Source: Escherichia phage SP27
Direction: 5' to 3' (one strand)
DNA: 64,000 bases
Sequence record: LC494302.1
Shown in pieces: positions 1-38,222 of this stretch (position 1 is the first letter of the stretch; every line of letters starts with the position of its first letter). A program made the translations under genes and the position numbers. A model generated the notes under the pieces. It was not told where the DNA came from and did no database searches. It worked only from the letters and a program-made list of their open reading frames with translations.

Positions 1-46
1 CAGGTACAATATTTCCGTACTTAACCATTCTTGTAAAAGGTAACAT
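1..46 (-). CDS. 5' end of a leftward gene (partial, continues beyond window start)
   Basis: Minus-strand ATG (rc of 44-46) 7 nt after strong SD AAGGAGGG (rc of 51-58); reads MLPFTRMVKYGNIVP; divergent from the + strand array. Confidence 0.5.
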   Translation of the reverse strand, partial: MLPFTRMVKYGNIVP

Positions 47-94
47 AAATCCCTCCTTATTCATTATATCATATTTACCCCATAAAGAAAACCC

Positions 95-123
95 TTGACA
101 TCCTTTCAGTACTGGTGTACTAT
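95..123 (+). promoter_or_regulatory. sigma70-like promoter of Fam-A array
   Basis: TTGACA 95-100 /17 nt/ TACTAT 118-123; SD AAGGAG 134-139; ATG 149. Confidence 0.65.
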
Positions 124-148
124 AGAAGGAATATAAGGAGAACTACAC

Positions 149-376
149 ATGACAAATACTCTTAAGTACTACCTCAATACTCTAAATGAACTAGAGTACG
201 GGGAATTTCTCGCGGATAGTTCGTGGCTAATTGAGCTAAAAAATTATAATAGTCCAGGATGCACCCTTATGATGAACAATGCAATTGATACCCTCATTGT
301 GAGTATTTTACACAGCAACATCTGCGGGGATAGCAATAAACAATTATCAAAAATCTTAGTACTGCTATCTATATGA
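149..376 (+). CDS. Fam-A mini-protein (divergent first member)
   Basis: 75 aa; SD AAGGAG; LKYYLNTL near N-term, ILVLLSI at C-term. Confidence 0.75.
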   Translation: MTNTLKYYLNTLNELEYGEFLADSSWLIELKNYNSPGCTLMMNNAIDTLIVSILHSNICGDSNKQLSKILVLLSI

Positions 377-576
377 ATATCGAACAGTACTACATCGATG
401 CACTACCAACAAAAGGTCTACGTGAAAGCCTACTGCATACACAAACTAATTTCAAACACCTCAAACGTAGCCCTAAACTCCTGAACTCGTACAGGAATAA
501 TAACATAAGAAATGCTTTACAAGGGGTAGAATGTATGCAATACTATTACATCCTTACCCTATTAATTGAGTACTAA
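373..576 (+). CDS. Fam-A mini-protein
   Basis: 67 aa; ATGA overlap with upstream stop; EQYYIDALP ... YYILTLLIEY. Confidence 0.8.
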   Translation: MNIEQYYIDALPTKGLRESLLHTQTNFKHLKRSPKLLNSYRNNNIRNALQGVECMQYYYILTLLIEY

Positions 577-577
577 T

Positions 578-787
578 ATGAATACTGAACATAAAGAATT
601 CTACACCAAATACCTTAGCAACGAAGAACAATTGTTTCTAAGGAGTGTATCACCTGTAAGTACCAATACTCAATTCGGTAGAGATTGCTTTAATAATTGT
701 ATACGTAGTACTCTAGAAGCAATCGAATGCAATAACAAAAATATTATGTACTCAGGTTTAATAGGACTAATATATTTCTATGAATAA
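578..787 (+). CDS. Fam-A mini-protein
   Basis: ATG in conserved TAATATG junction (track start 566 is TTG, rejected); MNTEHKEFYTKYL ... LIGLIYFYE. Confidence 0.75.
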   Translation: MNTEHKEFYTKYLSNEEQLFLRSVSPVSTNTQFGRDCFNNCIRSTLEAIECNNKNIMYSGLIGLIYFYE

Positions 788-974
788 TCATAAAGATTTC
801 TATTGTAGTAAACTACCCAAACAAGAACAGCTATCATTCTCTTTAGCACCACCTATGAGAAAGGATAATCTGTATTATAATTACGATTTCAGGATGGTGA
901 CACGTTATGCAATAGAACATCAGTTCCCTGAAACTAAGTACCGCTCTATCCTGAACCTCATCTTTAAGTTCTAA
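780..974 (+). CDS. Fam-A mini-protein
   Basis: 64 aa; MNNHKDFYCSKLP ... ILNLIFKF. Confidence 0.8.
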   Translation: MNNHKDFYCSKLPKQEQLSFSLAPPMRKDNLYYNYDFRMVTRYAIEHQFPETKYRSILNLIFKF

Positions 975-1026
975 AAGGTACACCAGGGACCGAGTACTTT
1001 AATATAGTAAGGCTAATTACATTATA

Positions 1027-1212
1027 ATGAATCATATAAGCTACTACTACCAACAACTATCCGACAGAGACAAGTACAGTCACAACTCCCATGTGTGGTA
1101 CTACAAACGCGGCAGTATAAGAGACAAACAACATTACTTCTGTATTTCTATTAAAGAAGCACTGACAACTAAGTACACGTACCGAGCAGTACTTAAACTT
1201 ATTGAAATGTAA
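1027..1212 (+). CDS. Fam-A mini-protein (LKLI subtype)
   Basis: 61 aa; ISYYYQQL ... KYTYRAVLKLIEM. Confidence 0.8.
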   Translation: MNHISYYYQQLSDRDKYSHNSHVWYYKRGSIRDKQHYFCISIKEALTTKYTYRAVLKLIEM

Positions 1213-1222
1213 AGAGAATACT

Positions 1223-1405
1223 ATGAACATTGAATTGTACTTAAGTAAATTACAGCCTGGCGATAGATTCATCTACAATAAGTTCGAATTCAACTACAAG
1301 AACGGGAGCAACAAATATCGTCGAGGATACCTATATACAAGCACAAGAGATGCACAAAACGAAAAGTACACATACAGAGAAGTACTTAAACTAATCTCTA
1401 TTTGA
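1223..1405 (+). CDS. Fam-A mini-protein (LKLI subtype)
   Basis: ATG 1223 (track start 1202 is TTG); MNIELYLSKL ... KYTYREVLKLISI. Confidence 0.75.
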   Translation: MNIELYLSKLQPGDRFIYNKFEFNYKNGSNKYRRGYLYTSTRDAQNEKYTYREVLKLISI

Positions 1406-1413
1406 GGTAATAT

Positions 1414-1599
1414 ATGAATACATTTGAGTACTATACCAATAAACTATCTATGCCTGAAAGATCTCATCTCTATGTGTGGAGAAATGCGTATAAAAGCGGC
1501 AATAAACTTATACAAAGAAATTCCCTTACAGTGTGTACAAATTTAATTAAAGCAGAGTACCGCACATATATTGAAGTACTCAAACTGATAGCAATATAA
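1414..1599 (+). CDS. Fam-A mini-protein (LKLI subtype)
   Basis: 61 aa; MNTFEYYTNKL ... YIEVLKLIAI. Confidence 0.8.
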   Translation: MNTFEYYTNKLSMPERSHLYVWRNAYKSGNKLIQRNSLTVCTNLIKAEYRTYIEVLKLIAI

Positions 1600-1607
1600 G
1601 GTACTCT

Positions 1608-1787
1608 ATGCAAGAATTCTATATCTATAACCTCCAGCACAAAGATAGATACAACTATAATAAATTCCAAAGGTACTACACAGTCGGGAACAAAAGAGAT
1701 AAAAAACGTTATCTACTCTCGTGTACAGTAGAAGCACAAAACGAAAAGTACACGTACAGAGAAGTACTTAAACTAATCTCAATCTAA
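1608..1787 (+). CDS. Fam-A mini-protein (LKLI subtype)
   Basis: 59 aa, below ORF-track cutoff; hand-translated MQEFYIYNLQHKDRY...NEKYTYREVLKLISI; fills array gap. Confidence 0.7.
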   Translation: MQEFYIYNLQHKDRYNYNKFQRYYTVGNKRDKKRYLLSCTVEAQNEKYTYREVLKLISI

Positions 1788-1794
1788 GGTAGAC

Positions 1795-1983
1795 ATGAAC
1801 ACTTTTGAGTACTACTTCAATAAACTAAACCACATAGAACAAAGTATGCACAACTCATTTATTCAGCACCATCAATCATCTGCACATGGAATTAAAAATA
1901 TATCGATTGAGATTATCACTACCCGTGTACAGTCATCTGAACGTTATATGTATATTGATGTACTGAAACTCATCTCTATGTAA
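1795..1983 (+). CDS. Fam-A mini-protein (LKLI subtype)
   Basis: 62 aa; MNTFEYYFNKL ... YIDVLKLISM. Confidence 0.8.
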   Translation: MNTFEYYFNKLNHIEQSMHNSFIQHHQSSAHGIKNISIEIITTRVQSSERYMYIDVLKLISM

Positions 1984-1991
1984 GGAATAAT

Positions 1992-2171
1992 ATGCAAGAA
2001 TACTATATAGAACACATAAGCATTAAAGACCGTTTCATGTACGACACCTTCGTGAAGTACTACAACCTGGCAACTAACAGTACTAAAAATATTAATCTCA
2101 ATAGCTGCATTCATCACGCACTAACAAAAGATAATCCCTTCAGGGAAATCCTCGCACTAGCATCTGTATAA
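1992..2171 (+). CDS. Fam-A mini-protein
   Basis: 59 aa, below track cutoff; hand-translated MQEYYIEHISIKDRF...FREILALASV. Confidence 0.65.
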   Translation: MQEYYIEHISIKDRFMYDTFVKYYNLATNSTKNINLNSCIHHALTKDNPFREILALASV

Positions 2172-2181
2172 AGGAAACCAA

Positions 2182-2841
2182 ATGAAACTTAATGCACACA
2201 GCAAACAATACCTTAAGCACTTTAAGTACCTCAACAGTATTCAAGCAGAATCTATTACATCTGCATATACGTATCACCCAAATGTACTAAAGAAACGAAA
2301 TAAAAAGAAAAAATCCAGAAATGTTCTCGTATCTAAGAACCTCAAATCGTACTTGAAGAAAAATAATATAGCTCTTGCTTTTATTAATATCTATAATACT
2401 GATTTAAAAGTATTGAGTACTAATACCAGCACAAAAGCACTAAAGAATGCATCTATCTATATACACATGGATAATATCCCGTGCACTATAATTCTATCTT
2501 TCGGGAATGTATACTTCTTCGGGAATTGTAATAGCACCCATGATATCAGTACTGCACAATTCCAAATCGGCGATATGTACTGCATGGGTTCAGAAAAAAT
2601 ACACGATAACATGCACTTCTTCCAAAAGCAACGTACTAACGAAACTGATACAGTACTGCAATTCCTCAAAGAATTACAAGGCAAAGAATTATCAGAAGAA
2701 GATCTATTCATGTACAGTACTGTAATCGATAATCCAGAACTCTATAAAAACGCGTACAATCTAACAAAACATGTACAGGAACTTATCAGTACTGATAAGA
2801 AATTTCATCACCTCATTACGTATATTTCAAACTATGTATAA
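2182..2841 (+). CDS. Fam-C-like protein embedded in Fam-A array
   Basis: 219 aa; SD AAGGAA; carries LSEEDLFMYSTVID = Fam-C core with Q replaced by M; Lys-rich patch KKRNKKKKSR. Confidence 0.8.
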   Translation: MKLNAHSKQYLKHFKYLNSIQAESITSAYTYHPNVLKKRNKKKKSRNVLVSKNLKSYLKKNNIALAFINIYNTDLKVLSTNTSTKALKNASIYIHMDNIPCTIILSFGNVYFFGNCNSTHDISTAQFQIGDMYCMGSEKIHDNMHFFQKQRTNETDTVLQFLKELQGKELSEEDLFMYSTVIDNPELYKNAYNLTKHVQELISTDKKFHHLITYISNYV

Positions 2842-3016
2842 AGAATACTACAAAGATAAAATCCCAATGCATCTACAACACCATATACCAAACGTTGCAT
2901 TGGGTATCAAAGATCACGCAAAGATAATGTTCCAACAATGTACTAAGTACACGCTCATATACGATGATAATCCATATATGCTGTACTACGTAGTAATGCT
3001 AACATTCAGGTACTAA
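2834..3016 (+). CDS. Fam-A mini-protein
   Basis: ATG 2834 overlapping upstream stop (track start 2771 rejected); MYKEYYKDKIP ... VVMLTFRY. Confidence 0.75.
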   Translation: MYKEYYKDKIPMHLQHHIPNVALGIKDHAKIMFQQCTKYTLIYDDNPYMLYYVVMLTFRY

Positions 3017-3017
3017 T

Positions 3018-3197
3018 ATGAATACTTATAAAGAATTCTACCTCTCGTACCTTAATTCCGATATAGTAACATCCAATACATTCAGTACTAAAATTATCTA
3101 TAATGAATTAATGAAAGAATGTATTAAAGGTGCTATTAACCCTAAAGATACGTATGACTTGTACTATGCAGTACTAACCCTTGTTTTCACGAAATAA
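3018..3197 (+). CDS. Fam-A mini-protein
   Basis: 59 aa, below track cutoff; TAATATG junction; hand-translated MNTYKEFYLSYL...YYAVLTLVFTK. Confidence 0.7.
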   Translation: MNTYKEFYLSYLNSDIVTSNTFSTKIIYNELMKECIKGAINPKDTYDLYYAVLTLVFTK

Positions 3198-3205
3198 CAC
3201 ATAAT

Positions 3206-3397
3206 ATGAATAACCACAAAGAATACTACATAGAGAAACTCCCAATGTATCTCCAACACCTTGTACCAACAGAACCATTGGGTATAGAAAAAAACTACGA
3301 AAAAGACTACTTCATTCAGTGCACTAAATCCTCGATATATATTGAAGACTATAATCGAGTACTGTATCACATCCTTTTACTAATATATAGGTACTAA
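3206..3397 (+). CDS. Fam-A mini-protein
   Basis: 63 aa; MNNHKEYYIEKLP ... ILLLIYRY. Confidence 0.85.
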   Translation: MNNHKEYYIEKLPMYLQHLVPTEPLGIEKNYEKDYFIQCTKSSIYIEDYNRVLYHILLLIYRY

Positions 3398-3398
3398 T

Positions 3399-3581
3399 AT
3401 GCACAAAGAATACTACACACAATTTCTCCCCAGCATTTTTGAACACTACGCCAGATACAAAGTCCCTATGGATAACGATTTGGCAGTACTGGGATTCAAT
3501 AACTGCATAGAACGAAGTATAGAAAATAGTAGTAGTTATGACCAGCTATATAACACTATCCTACTTATATTCAGGTACTAA
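3399..3581 (+). CDS. Fam-A mini-protein
   Basis: 60 aa; TAATATG junction; MHKEYYTQFLP ... ILLIFRY. Confidence 0.85.
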   Translation: MHKEYYTQFLPSIFEHYARYKVPMDNDLAVLGFNNCIERSIENSSSYDQLYNTILLIFRY

Positions 3582-3582
3582 C

Positions 3583-3771
3583 ATGCATAAAGAATACTAC
3601 ACAAAATATTTCCCAATGTACCTCAGAACTAATCTATTAGATAAACCTCGCGGTATCAATGCACAAAATGATAAAGTGTATTTTACTATGTGCACTAAAG
3701 CATGTATACTAGATTTTGACAGCTACCATCGAGTACTGTATCATACCCTGTACCTAGCTTTCGTATTCTAA
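3583..3771 (+). CDS. Fam-A mini-protein
   Basis: ATG 3583 right after upstream stop (track start 3538 rejected); MHKEYYTKYFP ... LYLAFVF. Confidence 0.8.
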   Translation: MHKEYYTKYFPMYLRTNLLDKPRGINAQNDKVYFTMCTKACILDFDSYHRVLYHTLYLAFVF

Positions 3772-3780
3772 GAGAACAAT

Positions 3781-3966
3781 ATGCATAAAGAATTCTACTT
3801 AAGCCATCTGGATCTAAACTCCCAAATGCTTATACCACTAATCCCAATAGATATCAAGGATAAGAAAAATACCGAACAATTCATTTACCATACACAGTGT
3901 GCGATCACCCCAAATTACATTCCATATGAATTGTACTACATTATCGCCCTAATATATAGGTACTAA
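3781..3966 (+). CDS. Fam-A mini-protein
   Basis: 61 aa; MHKEFYLSHL ... IIALIYRY. Confidence 0.85.
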   Translation: MHKEFYLSHLDLNSQMLIPLIPIDIKDKKNTEQFIYHTQCAITPNYIPYELYYIIALIYRY

Positions 3967-3967
3967 T

Positions 3968-4153
3968 ATGCATAGAGAATACTACACACAATTTGTTAAA
4001 GGGAACTACAAACATGCCGTACCCAGAACCCCTTTAAATTCTCATGACCCAAGTACTATATTCTTGTTTAATGACGCAATACGTACAGTACTCAATACTA
4101 AAGATGAAGATGTGCAGTACGTATTCTTACTATTACTTATATACAGACACTAA
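3968..4153 (+). CDS. Fam-A mini-protein
   Basis: 61 aa; TAATATG junction; MHREYYTQFV ... LLLLIYRH. Confidence 0.85.
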   Translation: MHREYYTQFVKGNYKHAVPRTPLNSHDPSTIFLFNDAIRTVLNTKDEDVQYVFLLLLIYRH

Positions 4154-4158
4154 CTAAT

Positions 4159-4341
4159 ATGAATAAAGAACATAAAGAATTCTATATACGAAAACTAACA
4201 TTCGTCCCCGTAAGAATATATAAAGAATGCGACCCAAGATTATACCTATGGCACTTCAATGAGTGCATAAAAGATTCTATATACCATAAGAACTATAAAG
4301 AACAATTGTGCTCAGTACTAACACTAGTACTATCATATTAA
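4159..4341 (+). CDS. Fam-A mini-protein
   Basis: 60 aa; MNKEHKEFYIRKL ... LTLVLSY. Confidence 0.85.
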   Translation: MNKEHKEFYIRKLTFVPVRIYKECDPRLYLWHFNECIKDSIYHKNYKEQLCSVLTLVLSY

Positions 4342-4356
4342 TTAATAGAGAATACT

Positions 4357-4548
4357 ATGTATAAAAACTTCTATATAAGTAAACTAAAAGAAAATGAACA
4401 AGTATGGATTAGATCTATAATTCCACTGGCATTTAATAGATATGCATTTAACAGATGTACCGAGATTGCTATAGACCCTTATAATATTAAAGAGAATGTA
4501 CAGTATAATCAGTACTACTATATCTTAATGCTTATATATAGAAAGTAA
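4357..4548 (+). CDS. Fam-A mini-protein (last member)
   Basis: 63 aa; MYKNFYISKL ... YILMLIYRK. Confidence 0.8.
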   Translation: MYKNFYISKLKENEQVWIRSIIPLAFNRYAFNRCTEIAIDPYNIKENVQYNQYYYILMLIYRK

Positions 4549-4564
4549 TTAAACACATAGAGAC

Positions 4565-4649
4565 AGGGGAAGCTCCTAGTGAACAACCTTTATGTACAGG
4601 CGAATTGTTAAAATTCAGCCTGGACAAATGCGATCACTAGGATTCTCCC
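4565..4649 (+). other. long imperfect hairpin right after Fam-A array
   Basis: GGGGA-agc-TCCTAGTGA 4565-4581 pairs with TCACTAGGA-t-TCTCCCC 4633-4649 (9 + 5 bp, 51-nt loop). Confidence 0.5.
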
Positions 4650-4659
4650 CAGGCTAAAC

Positions 4660-4935
4660 CCCGTAATCATAGGTAGTCATAAGTAATCATATATAAACAT
4701 TTATATGAGCACCGTAGAATCACAGAATGATTATATATGATTCAGTACTGATTAGTATAGACAAGAATGCTCAAGAATGCACGGGAAGGATTCAGAATGA
4801 TTCAGTACTGATATGCCACTAAGTAGGCAGAGGAAGTCTGCCGTACTTTGTAGTTTCCAAGCTCCTTTTCCATTTTGCAAATTACATCAAATGTAATCAA
4901 AAGTAATCACGCAATGATTAGTACTGAATTATTAC
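4660..4935. repeat. cluster of short iterated words (GTAATCA, GAATGATT, AAGAATGC)
   Basis: GTAATCA at 4662, 4682, 4893, 4903; GAATGATT(A/C) three or four times; no ORF. Confidence 0.6.
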
Positions 4936-5185
4936 TTTCACCTTAATTTCAATTACCCCTTTACCCTTCGGGGTAAAATTCAATTACCCCTTGAGGCTCC
5001 AGCAAAAAGTTGGTTAGTACTCCATCCTAAATCTGGATCGTAAAAAATTTGGAGTACCTATGAAATAAAAGTTGGATCTTCGAAAGTTGAAATTTACGTT
5101 GGGACATATAGGATTTGTGGGATATAATGAGTTTTGTAGCGATACAGATTATACGATTTCAGTACTGAATAATGAAAGAAAGCTA

Positions 5186-5318
5186 TTGACATTATGATTC
5201 AGTACTGTATAATGTTCTACATAGGGTGATGAGTTGCTGCGAACAATTCATTTACTCTACCTCCTGTCGTGAGACAGTACAGAAAAGATAGTTCCTCCTG
5301 TGGTGGTACATCTTTTTG
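5186..5318 (+). ncRNA. candidate promoter-driven short RNA (about 100 nt) with two CCUCCUGU motifs
   Basis: TTGACA 5186-5191 /16/ TATAAT 5208-5213; no ORF with SD; CTGTC-GTGA-GACAG hairpin; direct repeat CCTCCTGT(C/G)GTG; T-run 5312-5316. Confidence 0.4.
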
Positions 5319-5544
5319 AACCTCATATGAAAATCGTAATAACAGTACTGATATTAACAGAATGGTGTCAGTACTGATTTTAATCTAAAGCATTATGCCA
5401 CCAGCACAAGTTGGTGGATTCCCTCTAACAGTATTCAGTACTACATGATAGTCTTCATCCTCCTAGGGTAACATAGTGAGGGCTATGATGGCAGTACTGA
5501 ATACTCCCTTTCAAAAGATAGATCTATGGTATAGTACTGACGGA

Positions 5545-5730
5545 TTTTGGGTGTAGTTACCCTGGATGGATTTTGGACGTAGATATGTCTAGCCCTCCAG
5601 AAGTCTGGAAGTAAAGATGGCTATCCATCTAGACGGCTAAACGGATAGATTTCTGGATGGCTGGATGGCTAGACGTTTGGACGGCTAAACGGCTAGATGG
5701 TTACACGTCTGGAAGTATAGACGGCTAAAT
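5545..5730. repeat. iteron-like cluster
   Basis: GACGGCTAAA at 5632, 5680, 5720; CTGGATGG at 5562, 5653, 5661; GTCTGGAAGTA at 5603, 5707; ATTTTGG(G/A)CGT repeated. Confidence 0.7.
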
Positions 5731-5884
5731 CAAAATTTTATTTTGTTTTTTCCAATAGTTCCCCTACCGCGTGGGGATAGTTTCCCCGCAGTATCTGGAG
5801 TTAGATTTTTCTGAATCTGGAATCATTATCTTATAAACTGGGGGCAATGTCAACGGCCTGGACGGATATTTTTAAAAATTTTTT

Positions 5885-5978
5885 CAGTACTGAATTTTGG
5901 GCGTAACTATGCACCCGGTGGGCTTGAGTCTTTCTCGACTTGATGGAACTATTATACAGTACTGAAAAAATAAAGCAA
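5885..5978 (-). ncRNA. short promoter-driven noncoding unit, CCCAYMGGGTGC core (unit a)
   Basis: Minus strand TTGCTT (rc 5973-5978) /16/ TATAAT (rc 5951-5956); reads ...CAAGCCCACCGGGTGCATAGTTACGCCCAAAATT; no ORF. Confidence 0.4.
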
Positions 5979-6008
5979 TACCCTGGAAGCAAAAAAGTTT
6001 TAATTAAT

Positions 6009-6091
6009 TTGCTTGCTATCCTGGGCCGGACTATGGTACTATATTTCAGTACTGAGAAAGTGCGTTTACCTGCTAGGGTGCGGGAGTGTAT
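6009..6091 (+). ncRNA. short promoter-driven noncoding unit (unit b)
   Basis: TTGCTT 6009-6014 /17/ TATGGT 6032-6037; ...CTGCTAGGGTGCGGGAGTGTATCC then T-run 6084-6090. Confidence 0.35.
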
Positions 6092-6194
6092 CCTTTTTTT
6101 ATATCTTGAATTTTGGGCGTAATTCCGCACCCTCTGGGGTTTCCGCTTTCTCGCGTCTATGTAGTAATTATACGCTTTTTCAGGATCAAGTCAA
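6092..6194 (-). ncRNA. short promoter-driven noncoding unit (unit c), convergent with unit b
   Basis: Minus strand TTGACT (rc 6189-6194) /16/ TATAAT (rc 6167-6172); reads ...AACCCCAGAGGGTGCGGAATTACGCCCAAAATT. Confidence 0.4.
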
Positions 6195-6352
6195 TACCTA
6201 AAAACAAAATAATTGAAAATAATTTAACGCGTTTAAACGGCCCGTAACGCCCTGGAATGATTAGAATGGTGCAAATGTATAGCTTAGGTGTATTAATGCG
6301 TTAGAATGCGTCTGAGGCCGTTTTATGGGGTGTAGTAGTGATTTGGTTGATT

Positions 6353-6439
6353 CAGTACTGAATAATAGTACTCCTATATAGAAAGATAGTTCCCCTGGAT
6401 GGTTGCAGTACTGAATAATAGTACTCCTATATAGAAAGA
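6353..6439 (+). repeat. 34-bp direct repeat x2
   Basis: CAGTACTGAATAATAGTACTCCTATATAGAAAGA at 6353-6386 and 6406-6439, 19-bp spacer. Confidence 0.85.
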
Positions 6440-6470
6440 AAACTATTTTAAAAGTATTTGTAGAAAGTAC

Positions 6471-6530
6471 TTGCACCGTACTGATAAAAGCGTATAATGT
6501 TTTACATCGAGAGCGGGAACACTTCCCGCT
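6471..6530 (+). promoter_or_regulatory. early promoter + 5' hairpin cassette
   Basis: TTGCAC 6471-6476 /16/ TATAAT 6493-6498; hairpin AGCGGGAA-CAC-TTCCCGCT 6512-6530. Confidence 0.75.
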
Positions 6531-6553
6531 ACACATTAAGAGAGATTAAAACG

Positions 6554-6916
6554 ATGGCGACTCAAATCAATAAAATCATGCTTAACCTGGTAAACTTCCG
6601 CGATGAGATGAAAGGTCTTCCGGCTGAAACTGTAAAAATTCACATTGCAGCTTATCGGGAACTTATTGCAATGTTGCCGCTTAAGCGTGAACAATACGCC
6701 GCTACTTTGATGCTGGATTCAATGATCCATATAATGATCTCAAATGATTTAACGATGGTTTATCAGTACATGGGCGAAAATTTCGCGGTGTGTAGTAAGC
6801 CAGTACCAGGGATGGCAACAACTGAGGAATTGCACGGCTTAAACTTAAAACAAGATGCATGGGATAATATGCCTCGTTTCCTGGTATGGGCTGACAGTGG
6901 CAAAATTTACAAATAA
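6554..6916 (+). CDS. hypothetical protein
   Basis: 120 aa from MATQINKIM; track start 6497 lies inside promoter/hairpin so rejected; SD AAGAGAG. Confidence 0.8.
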   Translation: MATQINKIMLNLVNFRDEMKGLPAETVKIHIAAYRELIAMLPLKREQYAATLMLDSMIHIMISNDLTMVYQYMGENFAVCSKPVPGMATTEELHGLNLKQDAWDNMPRFLVWADSGKIYK

Positions 6917-6930
6917 GTTTAATAAAGTAC

Positions 6931-6989
6931 TTGCAAACTATGTTTAATGGCGTATAATGTTTTACATCAGGTGGGGAATAGTTCCCCAC
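6931..6989 (+). promoter_or_regulatory. early promoter + 5' hairpin cassette
   Basis: TTGCAA 6931-6936 /16/ TATAAT 6953-6958; hairpin GTGGGGAA-TAG-TTCCCCAC 6971-6989. Confidence 0.75.
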
Positions 6990-7008
6990 TATATAAGAGG
7001 ATTAAAAA

Positions 7009-31374: not shown

Positions 31375-31617
31375 ATGAAAGTACTGACAGAACTAGAAAT
31401 GTATCATAGATTTAATAAGTACTATCATTTACTTAAGCCTATACAGAGGATTAAATGTCCATTTGAAGAGAAACAGGTTTTAATCTATGAGCACAAGTTC
31501 TTTGTATCATTAGGTACAGATCAACAAGAGTACTATTTGACGTTGTACTTGATTACATTAATAGATTTAATTCACTATAAAACAAAACAAGCTAATAAAG
31601 AGAAATATGAAAACTAA
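31375..31617 (+). CDS. Fam-B protein (last of contiguous array)
   Basis: ATG 31375 after TAAT junction (track start 31342 is GTG); MKVLTELEMY; LGTDQQEYYLTLYLITLIDLI. Confidence 0.8.
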   Translation: MKVLTELEMYHRFNKYYHLLKPIQRIKCPFEEKQVLIYEHKFFVSLGTDQQEYYLTLYLITLIDLIHYKTKQANKEKYEN

Positions 31618-31951
31618 TATACAACTCAAGGTATATAAATCATTTGAACATACATATATCAAAAGTAGTCTATGTAGAGATGTAATGGATTACAAGGGTA
31701 AGCCATTCACAATTACCTATGATTCTTATGTTAGTGATTTATATATATCATTTGTTAATTACGAAAATAAAATATACAAGCACGTTGATATTAAAGATTT
31801 AAGTACTTTATCTGAAGAGGAATACTTTCAGGAATCATTAGTATGGGATTTAGAGTTTCCTATGCCATTAGTACATAAGATGATAGTACTAATGAAAGAA
31901 TCTAAACAGGAGCCTAATGGTGATTATGAAGAACACACAGTTGAGTATTAA
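31607..31951 (+). CDS. Fam-C protein
   Basis: 114 aa; core LSEEEYFQESLVWD. Confidence 0.85.
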   Translation: MKTNIQLKVYKSFEHTYIKSSLCRDVMDYKGKPFTITYDSYVSDLYISFVNYENKIYKHVDIKDLSTLSEEEYFQESLVWDLEFPMPLVHKMIVLMKESKQEPNGDYEEHTVEY

Positions 31952-32321
31952 AAGTACTGATAATATTAAGAGTTATACAAGCTCAAGTACTGTGACAATC
32001 GAAGTGAATTCTCTTAATGCTGGTAATACAGTAGATAAGTTCTTTATTGCTCAAGGGTACAGGAAAGATATTCATCAATATTGTTCAGTATATGGGGAGT
32101 ACAATAGTACTGAAGATATAATTTATTGGTCAACACATCAAGATTATCTAACTAAAATTGGCGTTCCAGATGTTAGTACTTTATCTGAAGAAGAATACTT
32201 TCAGTACAGCTTAGTACATGATTTACATATACCTTTAGGGTTAATCAAGGGTATGCAGGAAGAGGTTCATAAGCTTAAATCCATGAGTAAAGGTACTTTC
32301 ATTAGAACAGTGCAATACTAG
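31917..32321 (+). CDS. Fam-C protein
   Basis: 134 aa (alternative ATG 31926); core LSEEEYFQYSLVHD. Confidence 0.8.
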   Translation: MVIMKNTQLSIKSTDNIKSYTSSSTVTIEVNSLNAGNTVDKFFIAQGYRKDIHQYCSVYGEYNSTEDIIYWSTHQDYLTKIGVPDVSTLSEEEYFQYSLVHDLHIPLGLIKGMQEEVHKLKSMSKGTFIRTVQY

Positions 32322-32322
32322 C

Positions 32323-32351
32323 TTGACAGTACTTTTCTTTAGTGCTATAGT
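32323..32351 (+). promoter_or_regulatory. sigma70-like promoter inside Fam-C array
   Basis: TTGACA 32323-32328 /17/ TATAGT 32346-32351. Confidence 0.7.
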
Positions 32352-32380
32352 ACCTGTACGTTAATCATAGGGTAGAAATT

Positions 32381-32626
32381 ATGTTAAATTTTTTAAATTT
32401 TCTTATCGTCTTGTGTATTGTTCTTGGGATTGCACCATTTGTATTGTATTTCATGGATTCAGATGAAATGCAGAAGATGAATTGCACAAGGACAGGACAG
32501 AGTAGAGTAGAGACGATTCTTATGCCTGTTACGGTTATTGTTAACAACATGCCCATTACGAACATGGTCCCTACCCTAACGACAACGTACCAGTACTCTT
32601 GTACAGACGGAGAGAGGTGGAGATGA
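32381..32626 (+). CDS. small membrane protein (N-terminal TM helix), not Fam-C
   Basis: 81 aa; MLNFLNFLIVLCIVLGIAPFVLYF hydrophobic N-terminus; own promoter. Confidence 0.75.
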   Translation: MLNFLNFLIVLCIVLGIAPFVLYFMDSDEMQKMNCTRTGQSRVETILMPVTVIVNNMPITNMVPTLTTTYQYSCTDGERWR

Positions 32627-32943
32627 AATTTAATATAGCAAAAACATCGAGTATATGTATTTTTGGTTATGCAGAAGAGTTAGGTGATATTGACATTCTT
32701 TTGTACAAAAAGGATGGTGTTATGCATTTCAAGTACCAGGATGAAGAGGCAGACAATTATCTTTTACCTAATTTAGTACAAATGCAGGAAGAGGAATTAT
32801 TCCAGTACAGCTTAATATACGACATTGTTATTTGCACGATGCCAGTACTAATTAGTATTCAAAAAGTGATGCTCGATATGTATGATAAGCTAATACAAGG
32901 TACATCAGGGAGAATCATTGAAATCGATATACAAGACAATTAA
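32623..32943 (+). CDS. Fam-C protein
   Basis: ATG 32623 in ATGA overlap, SD GAGGTGGAG (track start 32599 rejected); core QEEELFQYSLIYD. Confidence 0.8.
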   Translation: MKFNIAKTSSICIFGYAEELGDIDILLYKKDGVMHFKYQDEEADNYLLPNLVQMQEEELFQYSLIYDIVICTMPVLISIQKVMLDMYDKLIQGTSGRIIEIDIQDN

Positions 32944-33136
32944 TCAAGAATGGAAGACCCAAAAGTACAGGGAATTCAACAGGAATTTTACAAAAGATGC
33001 ATTGAATTTAAAAACAACAGAGTTTGATATGTTTATTTTTCTTGGAACACGTTCACAAGAACAATTTGTTCATTATTATATAAATTCGTTGCGAACGGAG
33101 ATAGTATGCAAAACACAGGGTATTATAAAAAGGTAA
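32918..33136 (+). CDS. Fam-B-like protein (stray copy, TTG start)
   Basis: 72 aa; no in-frame ATG near 5' end, TTG at 32918; FLGTRSQEQFVHYYINSLRTEI. Confidence 0.55.
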   Translation: MKSIYKTINQEWKTQKYREFNRNFTKDALNLKTTEFDMFIFLGTRSQEQFVHYYINSLRTEIVCKTQGIIKR

Positions 33137-33372
33137 ACCAATATTTGTACGCTACAAAGTACAGGGATTTTTGTTTAAAGGGTGGTGATGAAGATTTTTC
33201 TTTGCGATTATCAGAATTTAATCTGTTATTTTATCTTGGTACAAAAGAACAAGAAGAAATGGCACAGAAATTTATCAAGCACCTTTTACAAAAAATTAAT
33301 ATGCAAATTTTGATGCTTAAGTTACAGAATGAGATAAATGAATATGAATCCAGAAATAGTTCAGGATCTTAA
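33106..33372 (+). CDS. Fam-B-like protein (stray copy)
   Basis: 88 aa; SD ACGGAG; YLGTKEQEEMAQKFIKHLLQKI. Confidence 0.75.
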   Translation: MQNTGYYKKVNQYLYATKYRDFCLKGGDEDFSLRLSEFNLLFYLGTKEQEEMAQKFIKHLLQKINMQILMLKLQNEINEYESRNSSGS

Positions 33373-33730
33373 AAAAGTAATATTTCTTTTGAATACCAGA
33401 AGTGAATTGTATACAGAGTTAAAAGAGATTAATGCATTTTATCAGAATTTTGTAATCCAAGAGATCAGTGATTTAATTACAGATGCATTATTTGAATTCT
33501 CGGAGAAATACAAAGGTTCAGAGTTCAGTGTTAAGAATGTTATTCGTCCAAGTGCAAGGAAAATTATATTATCACATTTTACATTTGACAATAAAGATTT
33601 ATTCAGTCATAATCCAAGTACAGCTTTATATTTTATTCCTGATTCAGACAAAAATCATCCTATTCATTACGGATGGATTTTGTCATATATAGTACAAGGA
33701 AAGGAGTATCCTATTAAATGGAAAGATTAG
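33338..33730 (+). CDS. hypothetical protein (array-embedded; motif doubtful)
   Basis: 130 aa; only a weak DALFEFSEKY resemblance to the core. Confidence 0.7.
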   Translation: MNMNPEIVQDLKKVIFLLNTRSELYTELKEINAFYQNFVIQEISDLITDALFEFSEKYKGSEFSVKNVIRPSARKIILSHFTFDNKDLFSHNPSTALYFIPDSDKNHPIHYGWILSYIVQGKEYPIKWKD

Positions 33731-33879
33731 GGCGATTAGATTATTACACAATTAATACAAATTATTTGTTGCGTAATATAAAATCCGATTACAAAATATG
33801 GATAAAGAACAGAGATAGCATGTGTTATGAATTTTATTTAGATTATGCTATCAAACGATTTTTAAGAGAAGAACATTAA
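33718..33879 (+). CDS. small hypothetical protein
   Basis: 53 aa, below track cutoff; hand-translated MERLGRLDYYTINTNYLLRNIKSDYKIWIKNRDSMCYEFYLDYAIKRFLREEH; TAATG junction to next gene. Confidence 0.5.
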   Translation: MERLGRLDYYTINTNYLLRNIKSDYKIWIKNRDSMCYEFYLDYAIKRFLREEH

Positions 33880-34082
33880 TGCAAAAGATTAATACGATAA
33901 CATTAAATGCATTACAGGATTCATTATTAGATAGTATTAAGATGTATTACAATATACATTTGAAGGGTGGTATTGATAATTACGATTATTATTTGAGTTT
34001 AATTACATTTGAGCACCTTTCAGTACAGGACAGGATTTTACATCCTACAAATCCTAGGTATCCATCGATAGGTAAATTATGA
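33879..34082 (+). CDS. hypothetical protein (array-embedded)
   Basis: 67 aa; N-terminal NALQDSLLDSI loosely core-like. Confidence 0.65.
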   Translation: MQKINTITLNALQDSLLDSIKMYYNIHLKGGIDNYDYYLSLITFEHLSVQDRILHPTNPRYPSIGKL

Positions 34083-34627
34083 ATGAGATAAAGTTATTAG
34101 CACACAAGATAAGTACAATAATGCTTATCCTCAATAACAACCATCCTATATCGCATATAGATGGAATCCTGAGTCAGAGGACAGGTGGTAGTTTATATTT
34201 GTCCATAAACGCGGATATCGCAAGGAAATACATTGATATTGATGTTGAAATCGAATATGATACAACGGGGATTGTTGATGTAGGTGCATTAATCAGTTCA
34301 AATCCAGTATCAGCATCCCCATTGACCAAAGATGTTAGTACAGGATTCGAAGGATATTTGTGGTACAATACCAATGATGATTATTTTATATATCAGCATT
34401 CCAATACAAATTATGATGAAGACAAATTTCAGTTCATAGACCCTTATGATGAAGCTGAAGTATTTCAAAAATCATTAATCACAAAACCGCATGAGATGAT
34501 GTATCTAATGTTATTCAGTACAATGCATTTGAATCCATTAATTAAAGGTTTAAAATTTTATATTCAATTAAATTTAGTCCATGTAGTTTATGATTTATTA
34601 ATGCAAGGATATAGTTATGAAGTATAA
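34079..34627 (+). CDS. Fam-C protein
   Basis: 182 aa; ATGA overlap; core DEAEVFQKSLITK. Confidence 0.85.
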   Translation: MNEIKLLAHKISTIMLILNNNHPISHIDGILSQRTGGSLYLSINADIARKYIDIDVEIEYDTTGIVDVGALISSNPVSASPLTKDVSTGFEGYLWYNTNDDYFIYQHSNTNYDEDKFQFIDPYDEAEVFQKSLITKPHEMMYLMLFSTMHLNPLIKGLKFYIQLNLVHVVYDLLMQGYSYEV

Positions 34628-34928
34628 AATGATGTATACCCCAGATATGATTTATGTTGAATTAGAAGATGATGACGATGGGTGGAATTTGATTTATTCA
34701 AGAAGTTCAGGTTGGTACATGGCACATTTAAATGATTCGATAGTTACAGATTATTTTGTAGATTTCAATACATTATCCGATGAAGAATTGTTCCAACAGC
34801 AATTAGTGATTGACACGGGTGGTTATGATGTCTTATTATTAAAAAAGATACAGAAAGCTGTTATTGATTTTAAGCCCATGATATGGCAAAGGAAATATTA
34901 TGACCTCGAAGTACCATACCAGCAATGA
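34617..34928 (+). CDS. Fam-C protein
   Basis: 103 aa; core SDEELFQQQLVID. Confidence 0.85.
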   Translation: MKYKMMYTPDMIYVELEDDDDGWNLIYSRSSGWYMAHLNDSIVTDYFVDFNTLSDEELFQQQLVIDTGGYDVLLLKKIQKAVIDFKPMIWQRKYYDLEVPYQQ

Positions 34929-35466
34929 AATTCAGTACACCTACGCTAATGCAATCCTTATGGGACAAAAGTTAGCTTGTATTGTTGCAGCCTTATATAA
35001 TGCCCAGAAATATCACAAGCGTCATTTCCACAAATGTATTGGTATTATTCCATCGAAGTACAATACATATATTGCGTGCACGAGTCATTTTGATAAACGA
35101 TTCAATACACCAGATATACCAAATGCCCGTAGTGTTATTGGTCTTTTGGATTTCGCACCTGGTGCTGTTATTGGAAAGAATGATTTAGAGTACGCATGGT
35201 ATAATAAAAATGCCCCGTTAGTAATGGTAACATATGATAAAGAAACGAACAACGCAATAGAGTACAATACATATAAATCAGAGGAAGAATTTTTTCAAGG
35301 TTCAATGCTTGTACCAGTGCGTTTGTTATTTTATAATGTCATAATGAGTACAGTACACAATAGTCCATTACACAAGAATCACAAAATTAATTTCAATTTT
35401 TGTGCTTATGCGATTGATGGTGTGTATGAGTGTTTAATGGAGGTATTGAGTTATGAAGCTGAATAA
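34900..35466 (+). CDS. Fam-C protein
   Basis: 188 aa; core SEEEFFQGSMLVP. Confidence 0.85.
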   Translation: MTSKYHTSNEIQYTYANAILMGQKLACIVAALYNAQKYHKRHFHKCIGIIPSKYNTYIACTSHFDKRFNTPDIPNARSVIGLLDFAPGAVIGKNDLEYAWYNKNAPLVMVTYDKETNNAIEYNTYKSEEEFFQGSMLVPVRLLFYNVIMSTVHNSPLHKNHKINFNFCAYAIDGVYECLMEVLSYEAE

Positions 35467-35794
35467 TACATTTGATATTAATAAGTTAAGAGAATGGTTT
35501 TATAGTATTGAAATTGAAGCCATCCCGTATCATAGATATGAACAATATAATTTAACCAGTATTGATATCAGTGAGTTGTACGCGTATTATCAAAGTGCAT
35601 TAGAGATGCATAAGTTATTTTTGAGTACAGATTTTGTTCTAAATTACAATTTTGAGGAATTTAAAAATTATAATTTAGTACAGAAATATGTAGTAGCAAA
35701 GTACATGTACCTTCAAGGAATTACAAGTATAGTGGAATTCAATACAGTCCTTGCTTTAGTTGAGGTAATTTTATGCAGTACATGTATGATTTAG
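35453..35794 (+). CDS. hypothetical protein (array-embedded; degenerate core?)
   Basis: 113 aa; SELYAYYQSALEMH weakly core-like. Confidence 0.7.
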   Translation: MKLNNTFDINKLREWFYSIEIEAIPYHRYEQYNLTSIDISELYAYYQSALEMHKLFLSTDFVLNYNFEEFKNYNLVQKYVVAKYMYLQGITSIVEFNTVLALVEVILCSTCMI

Positions 35795-36279
35795 AGTTCA
35801 GCTTAGATGCTGCATTTAAATATGTTCACAAGATAGAAACAATATACAGTACATTATGTGCAATAAAATCAGTAACAGAAGAGCTTGATGTTGGTGAAAA
35901 ATATCAGGTATGGAATAATACATTTTTAAATAAAGAACGTTGCTCTACGGGGTTTAATATTTTAACATTTAATCCCAGCAATTGTTACCCAGAGAAGCAT
36001 GAACGTTATCCGAATGACGACATGTGGTTTGAGTACAAAGAAGATTGTGATATGTCGTTCATTGAAGTTCCTGATGATTTTAATGCACAAGATTTAACAG
36101 ACGAGTGGTGGTTCCAGCAGAATTTAGTCCACGATGATATTGATTTATTTTTTTATGTAGTATTTAAAATGCTTTATCACAACAATATAGTACAAGATAG
36201 TGTATTTTTTTCATGTCTATATATTGATGATTTGTACAATGAAATTCAAATCAACATGCCCAGAACGCCTGTATCGTAA
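35773..36279 (+). CDS. Fam-C protein
   Basis: 168 aa; core TDEWWFQQNLVHD. Confidence 0.85.
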   Translation: MQYMYDLEFSLDAAFKYVHKIETIYSTLCAIKSVTEELDVGEKYQVWNNTFLNKERCSTGFNILTFNPSNCYPEKHERYPNDDMWFEYKEDCDMSFIEVPDDFNAQDLTDEWWFQQNLVHDDIDLFFYVVFKMLYHNNIVQDSVFFSCLYIDDLYNEIQINMPRTPVS

Positions 36280-36295
36280 GATATGGGCTTTTTTC
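36258..36295 (+). terminator. weak terminator-like hairpin
   Basis: GCCCA 36258-36262 / TGGGC 36284-36288 (21-nt loop) then TTTTTT. Confidence 0.4.
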
Positions 36296-36304
36296 GTTTT
36301 GGTA

Positions 36305-36333
36305 TTGACATAGAAGACCAAAGCTGTTATCAT
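36305..36333 (+). promoter_or_regulatory. sigma70-like promoter inside Fam-C array
   Basis: TTGACA 36305-36310 /17/ TATCAT 36328-36333. Confidence 0.65.
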
Positions 36334-36361
36334 GTGTATTCATTTTAAAGGAGAATATATA

Positions 36362-37410: not shown

Positions 37411-37411
37411 T

Positions 37412-38026: not shown

Positions 38027-38027
38027 T

Positions 38028-38222
38028 ATGCTTACAGTTGATGTTAAACAAAAATACCGTAAGTTTGATTGGTTCACCGACAGTTTCCAGCTTGAATTAT
38101 TACATTTGAATATCTGTGAAACATTATGTGCAGAAACACAAGATGAATTTGATGATAGAGTGATGAACATAGTAATGCTTTCTTGCTTTAAACATTTTGG
38201 TTATTTTTTCGGACAGAATTGA
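38028..38222 (+). CDS. hypothetical protein (array-embedded)
   Basis: 64 aa; DSFQLELLHL weakly core-like. Confidence 0.65.
   Translation: MLTVDVKQKYRKFDWFTDSFQLELLHLNICETLCAETQDEFDDRVMNIVMLSCFKHFGYFFGQN

What the first reader, a model, noticed from the sequence alone, without database searches (positions are those of the whole stretch)
149..4548. Array of about 19 mini-genes of ~60 codons with conserved termini (Fam-A)
The units are 180-230 nt. Each starts M-(N/H)-x-KE[YF]Y-x-x-[KY]-[LF] and ends in a hydrophobic L-[LI]-[IY]-[RF]-[YF] or VLKLI[SA][IM] tail. Consecutive genes are joined by GGTACTAATATG-type junctions. Three members (1608-1787, 1992-2171, 3018-3197) fall just below the 60-aa ORF-track cutoff but fit the period and the family ends exactly. 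There are two subtypes: LKLI at 1027-1983 and LIYRY at 2834-4548. One 219-aa Fam-C-like gene is inserted at 2182. This is a third independent expansion in one window.
Basis: seen in the sequence. Interest (0 to 1): 0.7.

Follow-up and report, generated by a model that had tools for sequence, protein, structure and literature searches.

The report
Tandem mini-protein gene array in jumbo phage
A jumbo E. coli phage carries 19 back-to-back genes for ~60-residue helical proteins, at least 18 from one family; they are truly protein-coding and are gained, lost and recombined between closely related phages, which suggests (untested) a repertoire of early host-interaction factors.

Summary
Window 149-4548 holds 19 tightly packed + strand mini-genes (59-75 aa) and one 219-aa gene, about 97% coding.

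The window is an Asteriusvirus (121Q/PBECO4-like) jumbo coliphage. All units, including the three 59-aa ones, are already annotated "hypothetical protein" in GenBank relatives.

- **Coding:** dN/dS is 0.33 in the annotated frame and 1.33-1.34 in the shifted frames.
- **Family unity:** profile comparison joins 18 of 19 units into one family. The first gene, 149-376, is not demonstrably related.
- **Fold:** both subtypes give confident AlphaFold models (pLDDT 90) of a small helical fold with no informative structural relative.
- **Distribution:** the family is lineage-restricted, with 26 hits among 1.84 billion representative proteins.
- **Expression signals:** one conserved sigma-70-type promoter, AGG-type ribosome sites (often the previous gene's C-terminal Arg codon) and no internal terminator-like site indicate a translationally coupled operon.
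- **Position:** the array ends 274 bp before the ~21-kb direct terminal repeat.
- **Turnover:** copy number ranges from 14 to 22 across ten genomes, with 47 cassette types and hybrid cassettes.

Best reading: an early-expressed, fast-evolving repertoire of small host-interaction or anti-defence proteins. The function is inferred, not shown. The 219-aa gene looks like an older resident of the locus, not an insert.

The parts
95..123 (+). Sigma-70-type promoter TTGACA-17-TACTAT, with a CAGTACTG box in the spacer (107-114). An invariant AAGGAG ribosome site follows at about 136-141.
   Evidence: Scan. The -35, -10 and SD are invariant or near-invariant in 10 genomes, including the divergent JNE01 and Turkey5 (alignment A3). 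It shares the architecture of about 20 near-consensus promoters in the terminal repeat.
149..376 (+). First gene of the operon (75 aa, acidic). It has a family-like N-terminal motif, but homology to the family is not demonstrated.
   Evidence: hhalign probability is at most 2% against every subgroup. It has no PHROG match. It is conserved at 77-100% in 8 of 9 relatives.
373..974 (+). Three mini-genes (373-576, 578-787, 780-974) affiliated with the LIYRY subtype.
   Evidence: hhalign against the LIYRY profile: 71.5% (E 4e-5), 97.8% and 97.9% over the full length.
1027..2171 (+). Six mini-genes of the VLKLI subtype (1027-1212, 1223-1405, 1414-1599, 1608-1787, 1795-1983, 1992-2171).
   Evidence: BLASTP cluster. 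AF2 model of 1608-1784: pLDDT 90.4, four helices. hhalign to the LIYRY subtype: 91.9%, E 7e-7.
2182..2841 (+). Conserved 219-aa gene in the middle of the array. It is unrelated to the mini-family (phrog_29152, function unknown).
   Evidence: Orthologues at 38-98% identity in all relatives. Homologue in Erwinia phage Hallingskeid next to its RCC1 block, E 6e-11.
2834..4548 (+). Nine mini-genes of the LIYRY subtype (2834-3016, 3018-3197, 3206-3397, 3399-3581, 3583-3771, 3781-3966, 3968-4153, 4159-4341, 4357-4548). Four are joined by AGG-TAC-TAA-N-ATG junctions.
   Evidence: phrog_11711 is matched by 11 of 19 members. AF2 model of 3206-3394: pLDDT 90.2.
4822..4842 (+). Deposited physical genome end and start of the ~21-kb direct terminal repeat (4822), with a hairpin at 4823-4842. 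This is the first terminator-like site after the array.
   Evidence: E9.1 base 1 and the last base of G17 both map to window 4822. Hairpin. Terminal repeat sizes from PMC13070987 and PMC11895373.

Best explanation
The region is a single polycistronic operon in an Asteriusvirus jumbo coliphage. It encodes a lineage-specific paralogous family of soluble, roughly 60-residue helical mini-proteins.

**Shown**
- The genes are protein-coding and under moderate purifying selection.
- At least 18 of the 19 derive from one ancestor.
- The first and last helices form a conserved scaffold, while the central ~35 residues differ in sequence, charge and even secondary structure.
- The genes are packed with overlapping or 1-15-nt junctions. 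The Shine-Dalgarno of one gene often lies inside the last codons of the previous gene: the conserved C-terminal Arg is encoded as AGG.
- The array expands, contracts, swaps and recombines cassettes between otherwise near-identical phages.

**Inferred**
- The operon is read by host sigma-70 RNA polymerase early in infection, from the conserved promoter at 95-123. This promoter shares its design with the terminal-repeat promoters.
- The proteins act as small binders of host (or competing-element) proteins, that is, as host-takeover or anti-defence factors.
- Tandem duplication and unequal recombination at the conserved end-modules generate a strain-specific repertoire, in the manner of a viral multigene family or 'gene accordion'.
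For: **Coding**
- Pooled dN/dS is 0.31-0.46, with a third-position excess.
- The frame control gives 0.33 in frame against 1.34 and 1.33 in the shifted frames, on 62 orthologue pairs.
- 168 intact members were found in 10 genomes.

**Family unity and fold**
- hhalign: VLKLI against LIYRY 91.9% (E 7e-7) over the full length; 578-787 and 780-974 about 98%; 373-576 71.5%.
- Two independent AF2 models both reach pLDDT 90.
- Column entropy is 1.7-1.9 bits in the terminal helices and 2.6-2.75 bits in the centre.
- pI ranges from 4.7 to 9.6, and there is no transmembrane segment.

**Operon and translational coupling**
- Junction geometry and SD motifs.
- Arg is encoded as AGG in 33 of 42 cases within the last three codons, against 41 of 324 elsewhere.
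- No terminator-like site lies inside the array.

**Promoter**
- The -35, -10 and SD are invariant in 10 genomes.
- The promoter shares the TTGACA...CAGTACTG...TAnnAT design with about 20 promoters in the terminal repeat. Plus-strand promoters are enriched, 49 against 20±5 expected.
- In the related PA5oct, infection depends on host RNA polymerase and terminal-repeat genes are early (PMC7318152).
- CBB has RpoD-like promoters on short ORFs beside and inside the repeat (PMC5259590).

**Turnover**
- 14-22 copies per genome, and 47 cassette types at ≥75% identity in 10 genomes, with relocation of cassette C.
- Hybrid cassettes exist: P0009 (N-terminus of 2834-3016 joined to 3206-3397) and P0003 (3206-3397 with the C-terminus of 3583-3771).

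**Lineage restriction**
- 53 clusters among 5.8 billion sequences and 26 hits among 1.84 billion representatives, all in the same synteny where checked.
- The array is absent from fENko-Kae01, where the RCC1 block abuts the repeat directly.

**Not a virion component**
- The phAPEC6 virion mass spectrometry lists the neighbouring RCC1-like proteins but no mini-protein.
Against: - There is no expression, peptide or functional datum for any member, so early timing and host targeting are inferences by analogy.
- The array lies 274 bp outside the terminal repeat, not inside it, so the PA5oct and SPO1 analogy is positional only.
- The CAGTACTG box in the promoter spacer is not conserved in JNE01 and Turkey5.
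- Pooled dN/dS below 1 gives no sign of diversifying selection. The two members with ratios of 1 or more rest on very few substitutions.
- Orthologue pairs share ancestry, so the counts are descriptive, not independent.
- The AFDB library could not be searched.
Confidence: 0.6

Rival explanations
1. The conserved ends are a DNA- or RNA-level repeat (iteron, recombination site, processing signal or structured RNA), and the ORFs are incidental.
For: The longest multi-copy nucleotide-level repeat families (3-4 copies, ~50-70 nt) are the junction modules spanning stop and start. The Arg-AGG bias shows that some nucleotide-level constraint exists at the junction.
Against: dN/dS is 0.33 in the annotated frame and 1.3 in both other frames. 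Synonymous change at the first and last eight codons (0.040 and 0.076) is comparable to the interior (0.055). Junction RNAs fold no better than shuffles, with z from -1.6 to +2.6. No Rfam match was found in 1-7000. Confident protein folds were predicted for both subtypes.
Confidence: 0.03
2. The mini-proteins are partners, chaperones or regulators of the adjacent RCC1-like beta-propeller paralogues. Those genes are transcribed divergently from the same intergenic region, and both families have expanded together.
For: The divergent arrangement is conserved in all relatives, including metagenomic ones. Both are multi-copy families. Two RCC1-like proteins are virion components.
Against: fENko-Kae01 and Erwinia phage Hallingskeid have RCC1-like blocks but no detectable mini-gene family. 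No mini-protein appears in the virion proteome. The array's promoter is of the sigma-70 type shared with the terminal-repeat genes rather than a late type.
Confidence: 0.1
3. The array is largely neutral: duplication debris at a recombination-prone locus next to the packaging or terminal-repeat boundary, kept as ORFs but without individual function.
For: Relaxed constraint: dN/dS of 0.3-0.46 is high for phage genes. Cassettes are freely lost between strains. The location is 274 bp from the genome end.
Against: All 168 members found by ORF scanning in ten genomes are, by construction, uninterrupted reading frames. Clear purifying selection persists even between lineages at dS around 1.1. Core residues are conserved (Y8 and L59 are invariant). 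Ribosome sites are maintained at the junctions. Some cassettes (A, J, Q, S) are retained in all eight 121Q-like genomes examined.
Confidence: 0.12
4. They are small DNA-binding regulators, for example proteins recognising the highly over-represented CAGTACTG box found in the array's own promoter and in the terminal-repeat promoters.
For: They are small helical proteins and many are basic (pI 9-9.6). The CAGTACTG box is about 100-fold enriched and sits in promoter spacers.
Against: No helix-turn-helix or other DNA-binding fold appears among the structural neighbours. pI ranges down to 4.7. The variable centre with conserved ends is the opposite of what a shared DNA target predicts. No Pfam match was found.
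Confidence: 0.07

Closest known systems
Host-takeover module of Bacillus phage SPO1 (genes 37-60; PMC6873191)
   Same: A cluster of about two dozen mostly small genes at the genome terminus region. They are organised in operons with strong host-type promoters and strong ribosome sites, and are thought to redirect the host early in infection.
   Different: SPO1's genes lie inside the terminal redundancy and are mostly unrelated to one another, and several have demonstrated targets. Here the array lies 274 bp outside the repeat, is one paralogous family, and has no demonstrated expression or target.
Viral gene accordions and multigene families: T4 dmd-tifA segmental amplification (PMC9391042); poxvirus K3L as cited there; ASFV multigene families (my own knowledge)
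   Same: Tandem copies of small early anti-host genes, generated by recombination at short homologies. Copy number differs between closely related isolates.
   Different: T4 and poxvirus accordions are recent, near-identical copies that arise under selection and then collapse. This array is old and diverged (20-45% identity between cassettes) and is stably inherited as a repertoire. No counter-defence activity is known.
PHROG phrog_11711 (function unknown)
   Same: 11 of 19 members match it, with a best E-value of 5e-28.
   Different: Seven of the eight non-matching members, including all six of the VLKLI subtype, were rescanned at E ≤ 0.1 without matching it. So the database family covers only part of the family defined here, and it carries no functional annotation.
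Early short-ORF regions with RpoD-like promoters in Rak2-like jumbo phages (CBB, PMC5259590; PA5oct terminal-repeat genes, PMC7318152)
   Same: Same phage clade. Host-type promoters drive runs of short hypothetical genes next to or within the long terminal repeat, and these genes are experimentally early in PA5oct.
   Different: Those regions are not described as a single paralogous family. The mini-gene family was not detected in the two non-Asteriusvirus jumbo phages whose RCC1-flanking loci I scanned (fENko-Kae01, Hallingskeid).

Membership tests
Protein-coding paralogous gene family (as opposed to chance ORFs) | Substitutions respect the reading frame (dN/dS below 1 in frame only) | tested here: met
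   0.33 in frame against 1.34 and 1.33 in the shifted frames. Third-position excess of 214 against 113 and 108.
Protein-coding paralogous gene family (as opposed to chance ORFs) | All units are demonstrably homologous | tested here: inconclusive
   18 of 19 are linked by hhalign at 72-98% probability. 149-376 is not linked (2% or less).
phrog_11711 | Significant match to the family HMM | tested here: inconclusive
   11 of 19 members match (best 5e-28). Seven of the eight non-matching members, including all six VLKLI-type genes, were rescanned at E ≤ 0.1 without a match.
SPO1-type host-takeover module | Located within the terminal redundancy | tested here: not met
   The array ends at 4548 and the repeat starts at 4822.
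SPO1-type host-takeover module | Small genes with host-type strong promoters and ribosome sites | tested here: met
   Conserved TTGACA-17-TACTAT plus AAGGAG. SD motifs at the junctions. This is sequence-level evidence only.
SPO1-type host-takeover module | Early expression and host shut-off activity | not testable with these tools
   No RNA-seq or functional data for Asteriusvirus were found.
Viral gene accordion / multigene family | Tandem paralogues with copy-number variation between close relatives | tested here: met
   14-22 copies and 47 cassette types in 10 genomes.
Viral gene accordion / multigene family | Recombinant (hybrid) copies | tested here: met
   P0009 is a hybrid of 2834-3016 and 3206-3397. 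P0003 is 3206-3397 with the C-terminus of 3583-3771 (sequences).
Viral gene accordion / multigene family | The product antagonises a host defence or restriction factor | not testable with these tools
   No homology to any characterised protein.
Small membrane proteins (holin, spanin or exclusion type) | At least one transmembrane segment | tested here: not met
   Maximum 19-residue Kyte-Doolittle mean is at most 1.18. The hydrophobic tail is only about 8 residues.
Structured RNA or DNA repeat element | Conserved secondary structure or a known RNA family | tested here: not met
   No Rfam hit. Junction fold z-scores run from -1.6 to +2.6.

The most novel reading that the evidence does not exclude
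The array is a recombination-shuffled library of mini-binders built on one scaffold: two conserved terminal helices holding a hypervariable centre. Each cassette neutralises a different host defence or host protein, so the strain-specific cassette set helps determine which E. coli strains a given Asteriusvirus can infect. The conserved end-modules would then serve three purposes at once: protein core, ribosome site for the next gene, and homology for cassette exchange.
Probability: 0.2. Interest if true: 0.8.

Novelty: new member of a known kind. Interest (0 to 1): 0.45.

Why it matters
Small early phage proteins are the main source of newly discovered anti-defence and host-takeover factors. 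Jumbo phages of this genus are being proposed for therapy while more than 80% of their genes have no known function.

This locus offers a compact and experimentally tractable set of 47 or more natural variants of one 60-residue scaffold. Their presence or absence differs between phages that are otherwise at least 90% identical. That is the right material for correlating cassette content with host range and for pull-down screens.

It is also a clean example of dual coding. The conserved C-terminal Arg is encoded as AGG because that codon doubles as the next gene's ribosome-binding site.

If the proteins turn out to have no host-directed role, the locus is still a well-documented case of multigene-family dynamics in a bacteriophage.

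Tried and rejected
- **Pfam** scan of all members: nothing credible.
- **PHROGs:** only unannotated families.
- **PDB sequence profile search:** nothing.
- **BFVD viral fold library:** only the family's own members.
- **AFDB50 library:** not available.
- **tRNA scan:** none.
- **Rfam:** none.
- **Transmembrane or secreted peptide idea:** rejected on hydropathy.
- **RNA structure at the junctions:** rejected.
- **Extra synonymous constraint at the gene ends:** not seen.
- **Relation of the 219-aa gene to the mini-family:** rejected, hhalign below 1%.
- **Relation of the 219-aa gene to the large paralogue families:** left as borderline (24-67% probability, C-terminal segment only).
- **Search for the family in more distant Rak2-like phages** through their RCC1-like genes: none found.
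- **Literature:** papers on fEgEco12 and Sharanji contain no mention of paralogues or tandem arrays at this locus. No Asteriusvirus transcriptome was found.
- **Site-wise positive selection:** not attempted, because there are too few independent substitutions per cassette.


Full report
**What the window is.** Megablast of window 1-6000 matches 36 phage records, all Escherichia or Salmonella jumbo phages of the 121Q/PBECO4/G17 type (genus Asteriusvirus). The best match is vB_EcoM_E9.1 at 97.8% identity over 100% of the query. The window is AT-rich (30-41% G+C) and almost all long ORFs lie on the + strand.

**Checking the observation.**
- The ORF list and my own extraction confirm 19 mini-ORFs of 59-75 aa on the + strand between 149 and 4548, plus a 219-aa ORF at 2182-2841.
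- Consecutive genes overlap by 4-8 nt or are 1-15 nt apart, with one 52-nt gap before 1027. About 97% of the stretch is coding on one strand.
- All of these ORFs are annotated as 'hypothetical protein' in E9.1, including the 59-aa ones. Most are also annotated in G17, 121Q (gp249-gp265), JNE01, SD-15_S21 and Turkey5. Gene callers therefore do recover them.

**Are they genes?** I identified members in nine related loci with an HMM built from the window members. This gave 168 intact members, all on the + strand and only in the array; no other ORF in the 64-kb window matches.
- For reciprocal-best orthologue pairs, pooled dN/dS is 0.31 (at least 90% nucleotide identity), 0.46 (75-90%) and 0.38 (below 75%). 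Differences at codon positions 1, 2 and 3 are 113, 108 and 214 in the closest class.
- As a control, on 62 ungapped pairs the annotated frame gives 0.33, and the same alignments read in the +1 and +2 frames give 1.34 and 1.33.
- Codon changes at identical amino acids are no rarer in the first eight codons (0.040) or last eight codons (0.076) than in the interior (0.055).
- Junction RNAs fold no better than shuffles, and Rfam finds nothing.
These pairs share ancestry, so the figures are descriptive rather than formal tests.

**One family or several?**
- All-against-all BLASTP shows two solid clusters: 1027-2171 (tail VLKLI[SA][IM]) and 2834-4548 together with 578-787 and 780-974 (tail LIYRY and variants).
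- Profiles enriched with orthologues link the two clusters at 91.9% hhalign probability (E 7e-7, 54 columns).
- They link 578-787 and 780-974 to the LIYRY group at about 98%, and 373-576 at 71.5% (E 4e-5).
- The first gene, 149-376, is never linked (2% or less). Eighteen of the 19 units are thus one family.

**Relation to databases.**
- PHROGs holds an unannotated family, phrog_11711, that 11 of the 19 members match. The VLKLI subtype matches no PHROG.
- Pfam has nothing credible.
- A profile search of 5.8 billion sequences found 53 clusters.
- An exhaustive HMMER search of 1.84 billion representatives found 26 hits, all about 60 aa.
- The most distant hit examined (P0050, metagenomic) sits in the same synteny as the window.
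- tblastn against 50,697 phage records finds the family only in 35 Escherichia or Salmonella jumbo phages.

**The protein.**
- AlphaFold2 with the family alignment gives a confident model for 3206-3394: pLDDT 90.2, pTM 0.75, helices at 3-10, 14-17, 30-45 and 49-62.
- An independent run on 1608-1784, using VLKLI-type sequences only, gives pLDDT 90.4 and helices at 2-7, 11-26, 29-43 and 49-58.
- The terminal helices and helix 3 correspond between the two models. The second element is a long helix in one subtype and a short helix plus a proline-rich loop in the other.
- Column entropy is lowest in the first and last helices (1.7-1.9 bits) and highest in the centre (2.6-2.75 bits). Y8 and L59 are invariant.
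- The proteins have no transmembrane segment, contain 11% tyrosine, and range in pI from 4.7 to 9.6.
- The viral fold library returns only the family itself. The structure therefore supports a real, shared, compact fold but gives no functional lead.

**Expression signals.**
- A sigma-70-type promoter (TTGACA-17-TACTAT, 95-123) precedes the first gene.
- In an alignment of ten genomes, the -35 and the AAGGAG ribosome site are invariant. The -10 varies only at two positions (TAC/G-T/A-AT). This holds even in JNE01 and Turkey5, whose cassettes are only 20-59% identical to those of the window.
- No terminator-like site lies within the array. The first is the hairpin at 4823-4842.
- AGG/GAG-type Shine-Dalgarno motifs lie 5-8 nt upstream of 12 of the 19 starts and 13-14 nt upstream of two more. 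Of the five starts without a motif, two overlap the preceding gene.
- In the '...RY*' junctions the motif is the preceding gene's Arg codon (AGG TAC TAA T ATG).
- Across 140 unique member genes, Arg within the last three codons is AGG in 33 of 42 cases, against 41 of 324 elsewhere. Part of the conserved tail thus does double duty as protein and as ribosome site, which fits translational coupling.

**Position in the genome.**
- Asteriusviruses have direct terminal repeats of about 21 kb (PMC13070987; PMC11895373).
- Base 1 of E9.1 and the last base of G17 both map to window 4822. The array therefore ends 274 bp before the repeat boundary, which is also the deposited physical end.
- Strong sigma-70-type promoters are enriched on the + strand: 49 against 20.3±4.6 in Markov-shuffled sequence, and 14 on the minus strand.
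- About 20 near-perfect promoters cluster in 5-25 kb, and most share TTGACA-N8-(A/T/C)AGTACTG-TATAAT. The array's promoter carries the same elements with slightly different spacing.
- In the related PA5oct, infection is rifampicin-sensitive and terminal-repeat genes are early (PMC7318152).
- In CBB, RpoD-like promoters concentrate on short hypothetical ORFs beside and inside the repeat (PMC5259590).
- From this I infer, but have not shown, that the array is an early, host-polymerase-transcribed operon.
- The phAPEC6 virion proteome lists the neighbouring RCC1-like proteins gp549 and gp551 but none of the mini-proteins, although it detected a 4.7-kDa protein (PMC7247149).

**Dynamics.**
- Labelling cassettes by at least 75% identity gives 47 types in ten genomes, with 14-22 copies per genome.
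- Among genomes that are otherwise at least 90% identical, blocks are present or absent. Cassettes F-I are present in the window, E9.1 and BF17, are replaced by a single different cassette in 121Q and G17, and are missing in UE-S1 and SD-15.
- Extra cassettes are inserted in E9.1 and SD-15. Cassette C occupies a different slot in BF17 and TH47.
- Hybrid cassettes exist. P0009 joins the N-terminus of 2834-3016 to the body of 3206-3397. P0003 is 3206-3397 with the last nine residues of 3583-3771 (sequences).
- The longest multi-copy nucleotide-level repeats in the region are the 50-70-nt junction modules. These are the obvious substrates for such exchanges.

**The 219-aa gene.**
- It is conserved at the same place in every relative, at 38-98% identity, and has its own PHROG, phrog_29152, of unknown function.
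- It is unrelated to the mini-family.
- Its similarity to the larger paralogue families further along the window is marginal: phmmer E 0.003 to 39029-39652, and hhalign 67% over 47 C-terminal columns.
- A homologue (E 6e-11) sits next to the RCC1-like block of Erwinia phage Hallingskeid, where no mini-gene is detected.
- In Klebsiella phage fENko-Kae01 the RCC1-like block abuts the terminal repeat directly.
- The simplest history is that the mini-genes expanded around an older resident gene, at the junction between the RCC1-like block and the terminal repeat, within the Asteriusvirus lineage.

**Interpretation and comparison.** What is shown:
- a lineage-restricted, protein-coding, tandemly expanded family;
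- a conserved helical scaffold with a diversified centre;
- operon organisation with coupled translation signals;
- rapid cassette turnover.

What is inferred is early expression and a host-directed role. The closest known analogues are the SPO1 host-takeover module (PMC6873191) and viral gene accordions or multigene families such as the T4 dmd-tifA amplification (PMC9391042). The array differs from the first in being one paralogous family located just outside the repeat. It differs from the second in being old, diverged and stably inherited. It is not a member of any functionally characterised protein family.

**Verdict.** The genes themselves have been in GenBank since the 121Q record. However, none of the papers I could search describes the family, its unity, its coupling design, its position at the repeat boundary or its turnover. 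I rate it a new member of a known kind (viral multigene family or early small-gene cluster), of moderate interest, with a worthwhile experimental follow-up.

Noticed in passing
window, whole; densest at 4743-25469: The palindrome CAGTACTG occurs 65 times against 0.65 expected. It forms part of about 20 near-consensus promoters in the terminal repeat (TTGACA-N8-xAGTACTG-TATAAT) and also occurs inside coding sequence: four copies in the 219-aa gene and 21 copies in 40-63 kb. Its role is unexplained; it could be a promoter element, an operator, or a modification or recognition site.
   Followed up: partly
window 4549-6496: About 2 kb without credible genes, also unannotated in 121Q. It contains the deposited physical genome end at 4822. 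It also holds two copies of GA(A/T)TGATTCAGTACTGAT just before the end (4725-4752, 4785-4812), hairpins at 4823-4842 and 5343-5376, and a perfect sigma-70 consensus promoter at 5186-5213. A repeated unit, CAGTACTGAATAATAGTACTCCTATATAGAAAGA, occurs at 6353 and 6406. It may be a packaging or terminus-recognition and early-promoter region.
   Followed up: partly
window 5000-26000 (+ strand): Strong sigma-70-type promoters are enriched 2.4-fold on the + strand (49 against 20±5; 14 on the minus strand) and cluster in the terminal repeat. This fits a host-polymerase-driven early region.
   Followed up: partly
upstream of window position 46 (minus strand); L001 1-3046, L012 1-6482: A block of 3-7 paralogous RCC1-like (WD40_RLD) beta-propeller genes is transcribed divergently from the mini-gene array. 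Two of them are virion proteins in phAPEC6. The block is also present in Klebsiella, Salmonella and Erwinia jumbo phages that lack the mini-genes.
   Followed up: partly
window 31600-50600: Two larger paralogous families of 110-165-aa proteins, with 10 and 8 members by BLASTP clustering at E<1e-4.
   Followed up: no
L015 (Erwinia phage Hallingskeid) 2437-3795, minus strand: Two adjacent homologues of the window's 219-aa gene (E 6e-11 and 3e-4) sit next to that phage's RCC1-like block. This suggests the gene is an ancient companion of the RCC1-like genes.
   Followed up: partly
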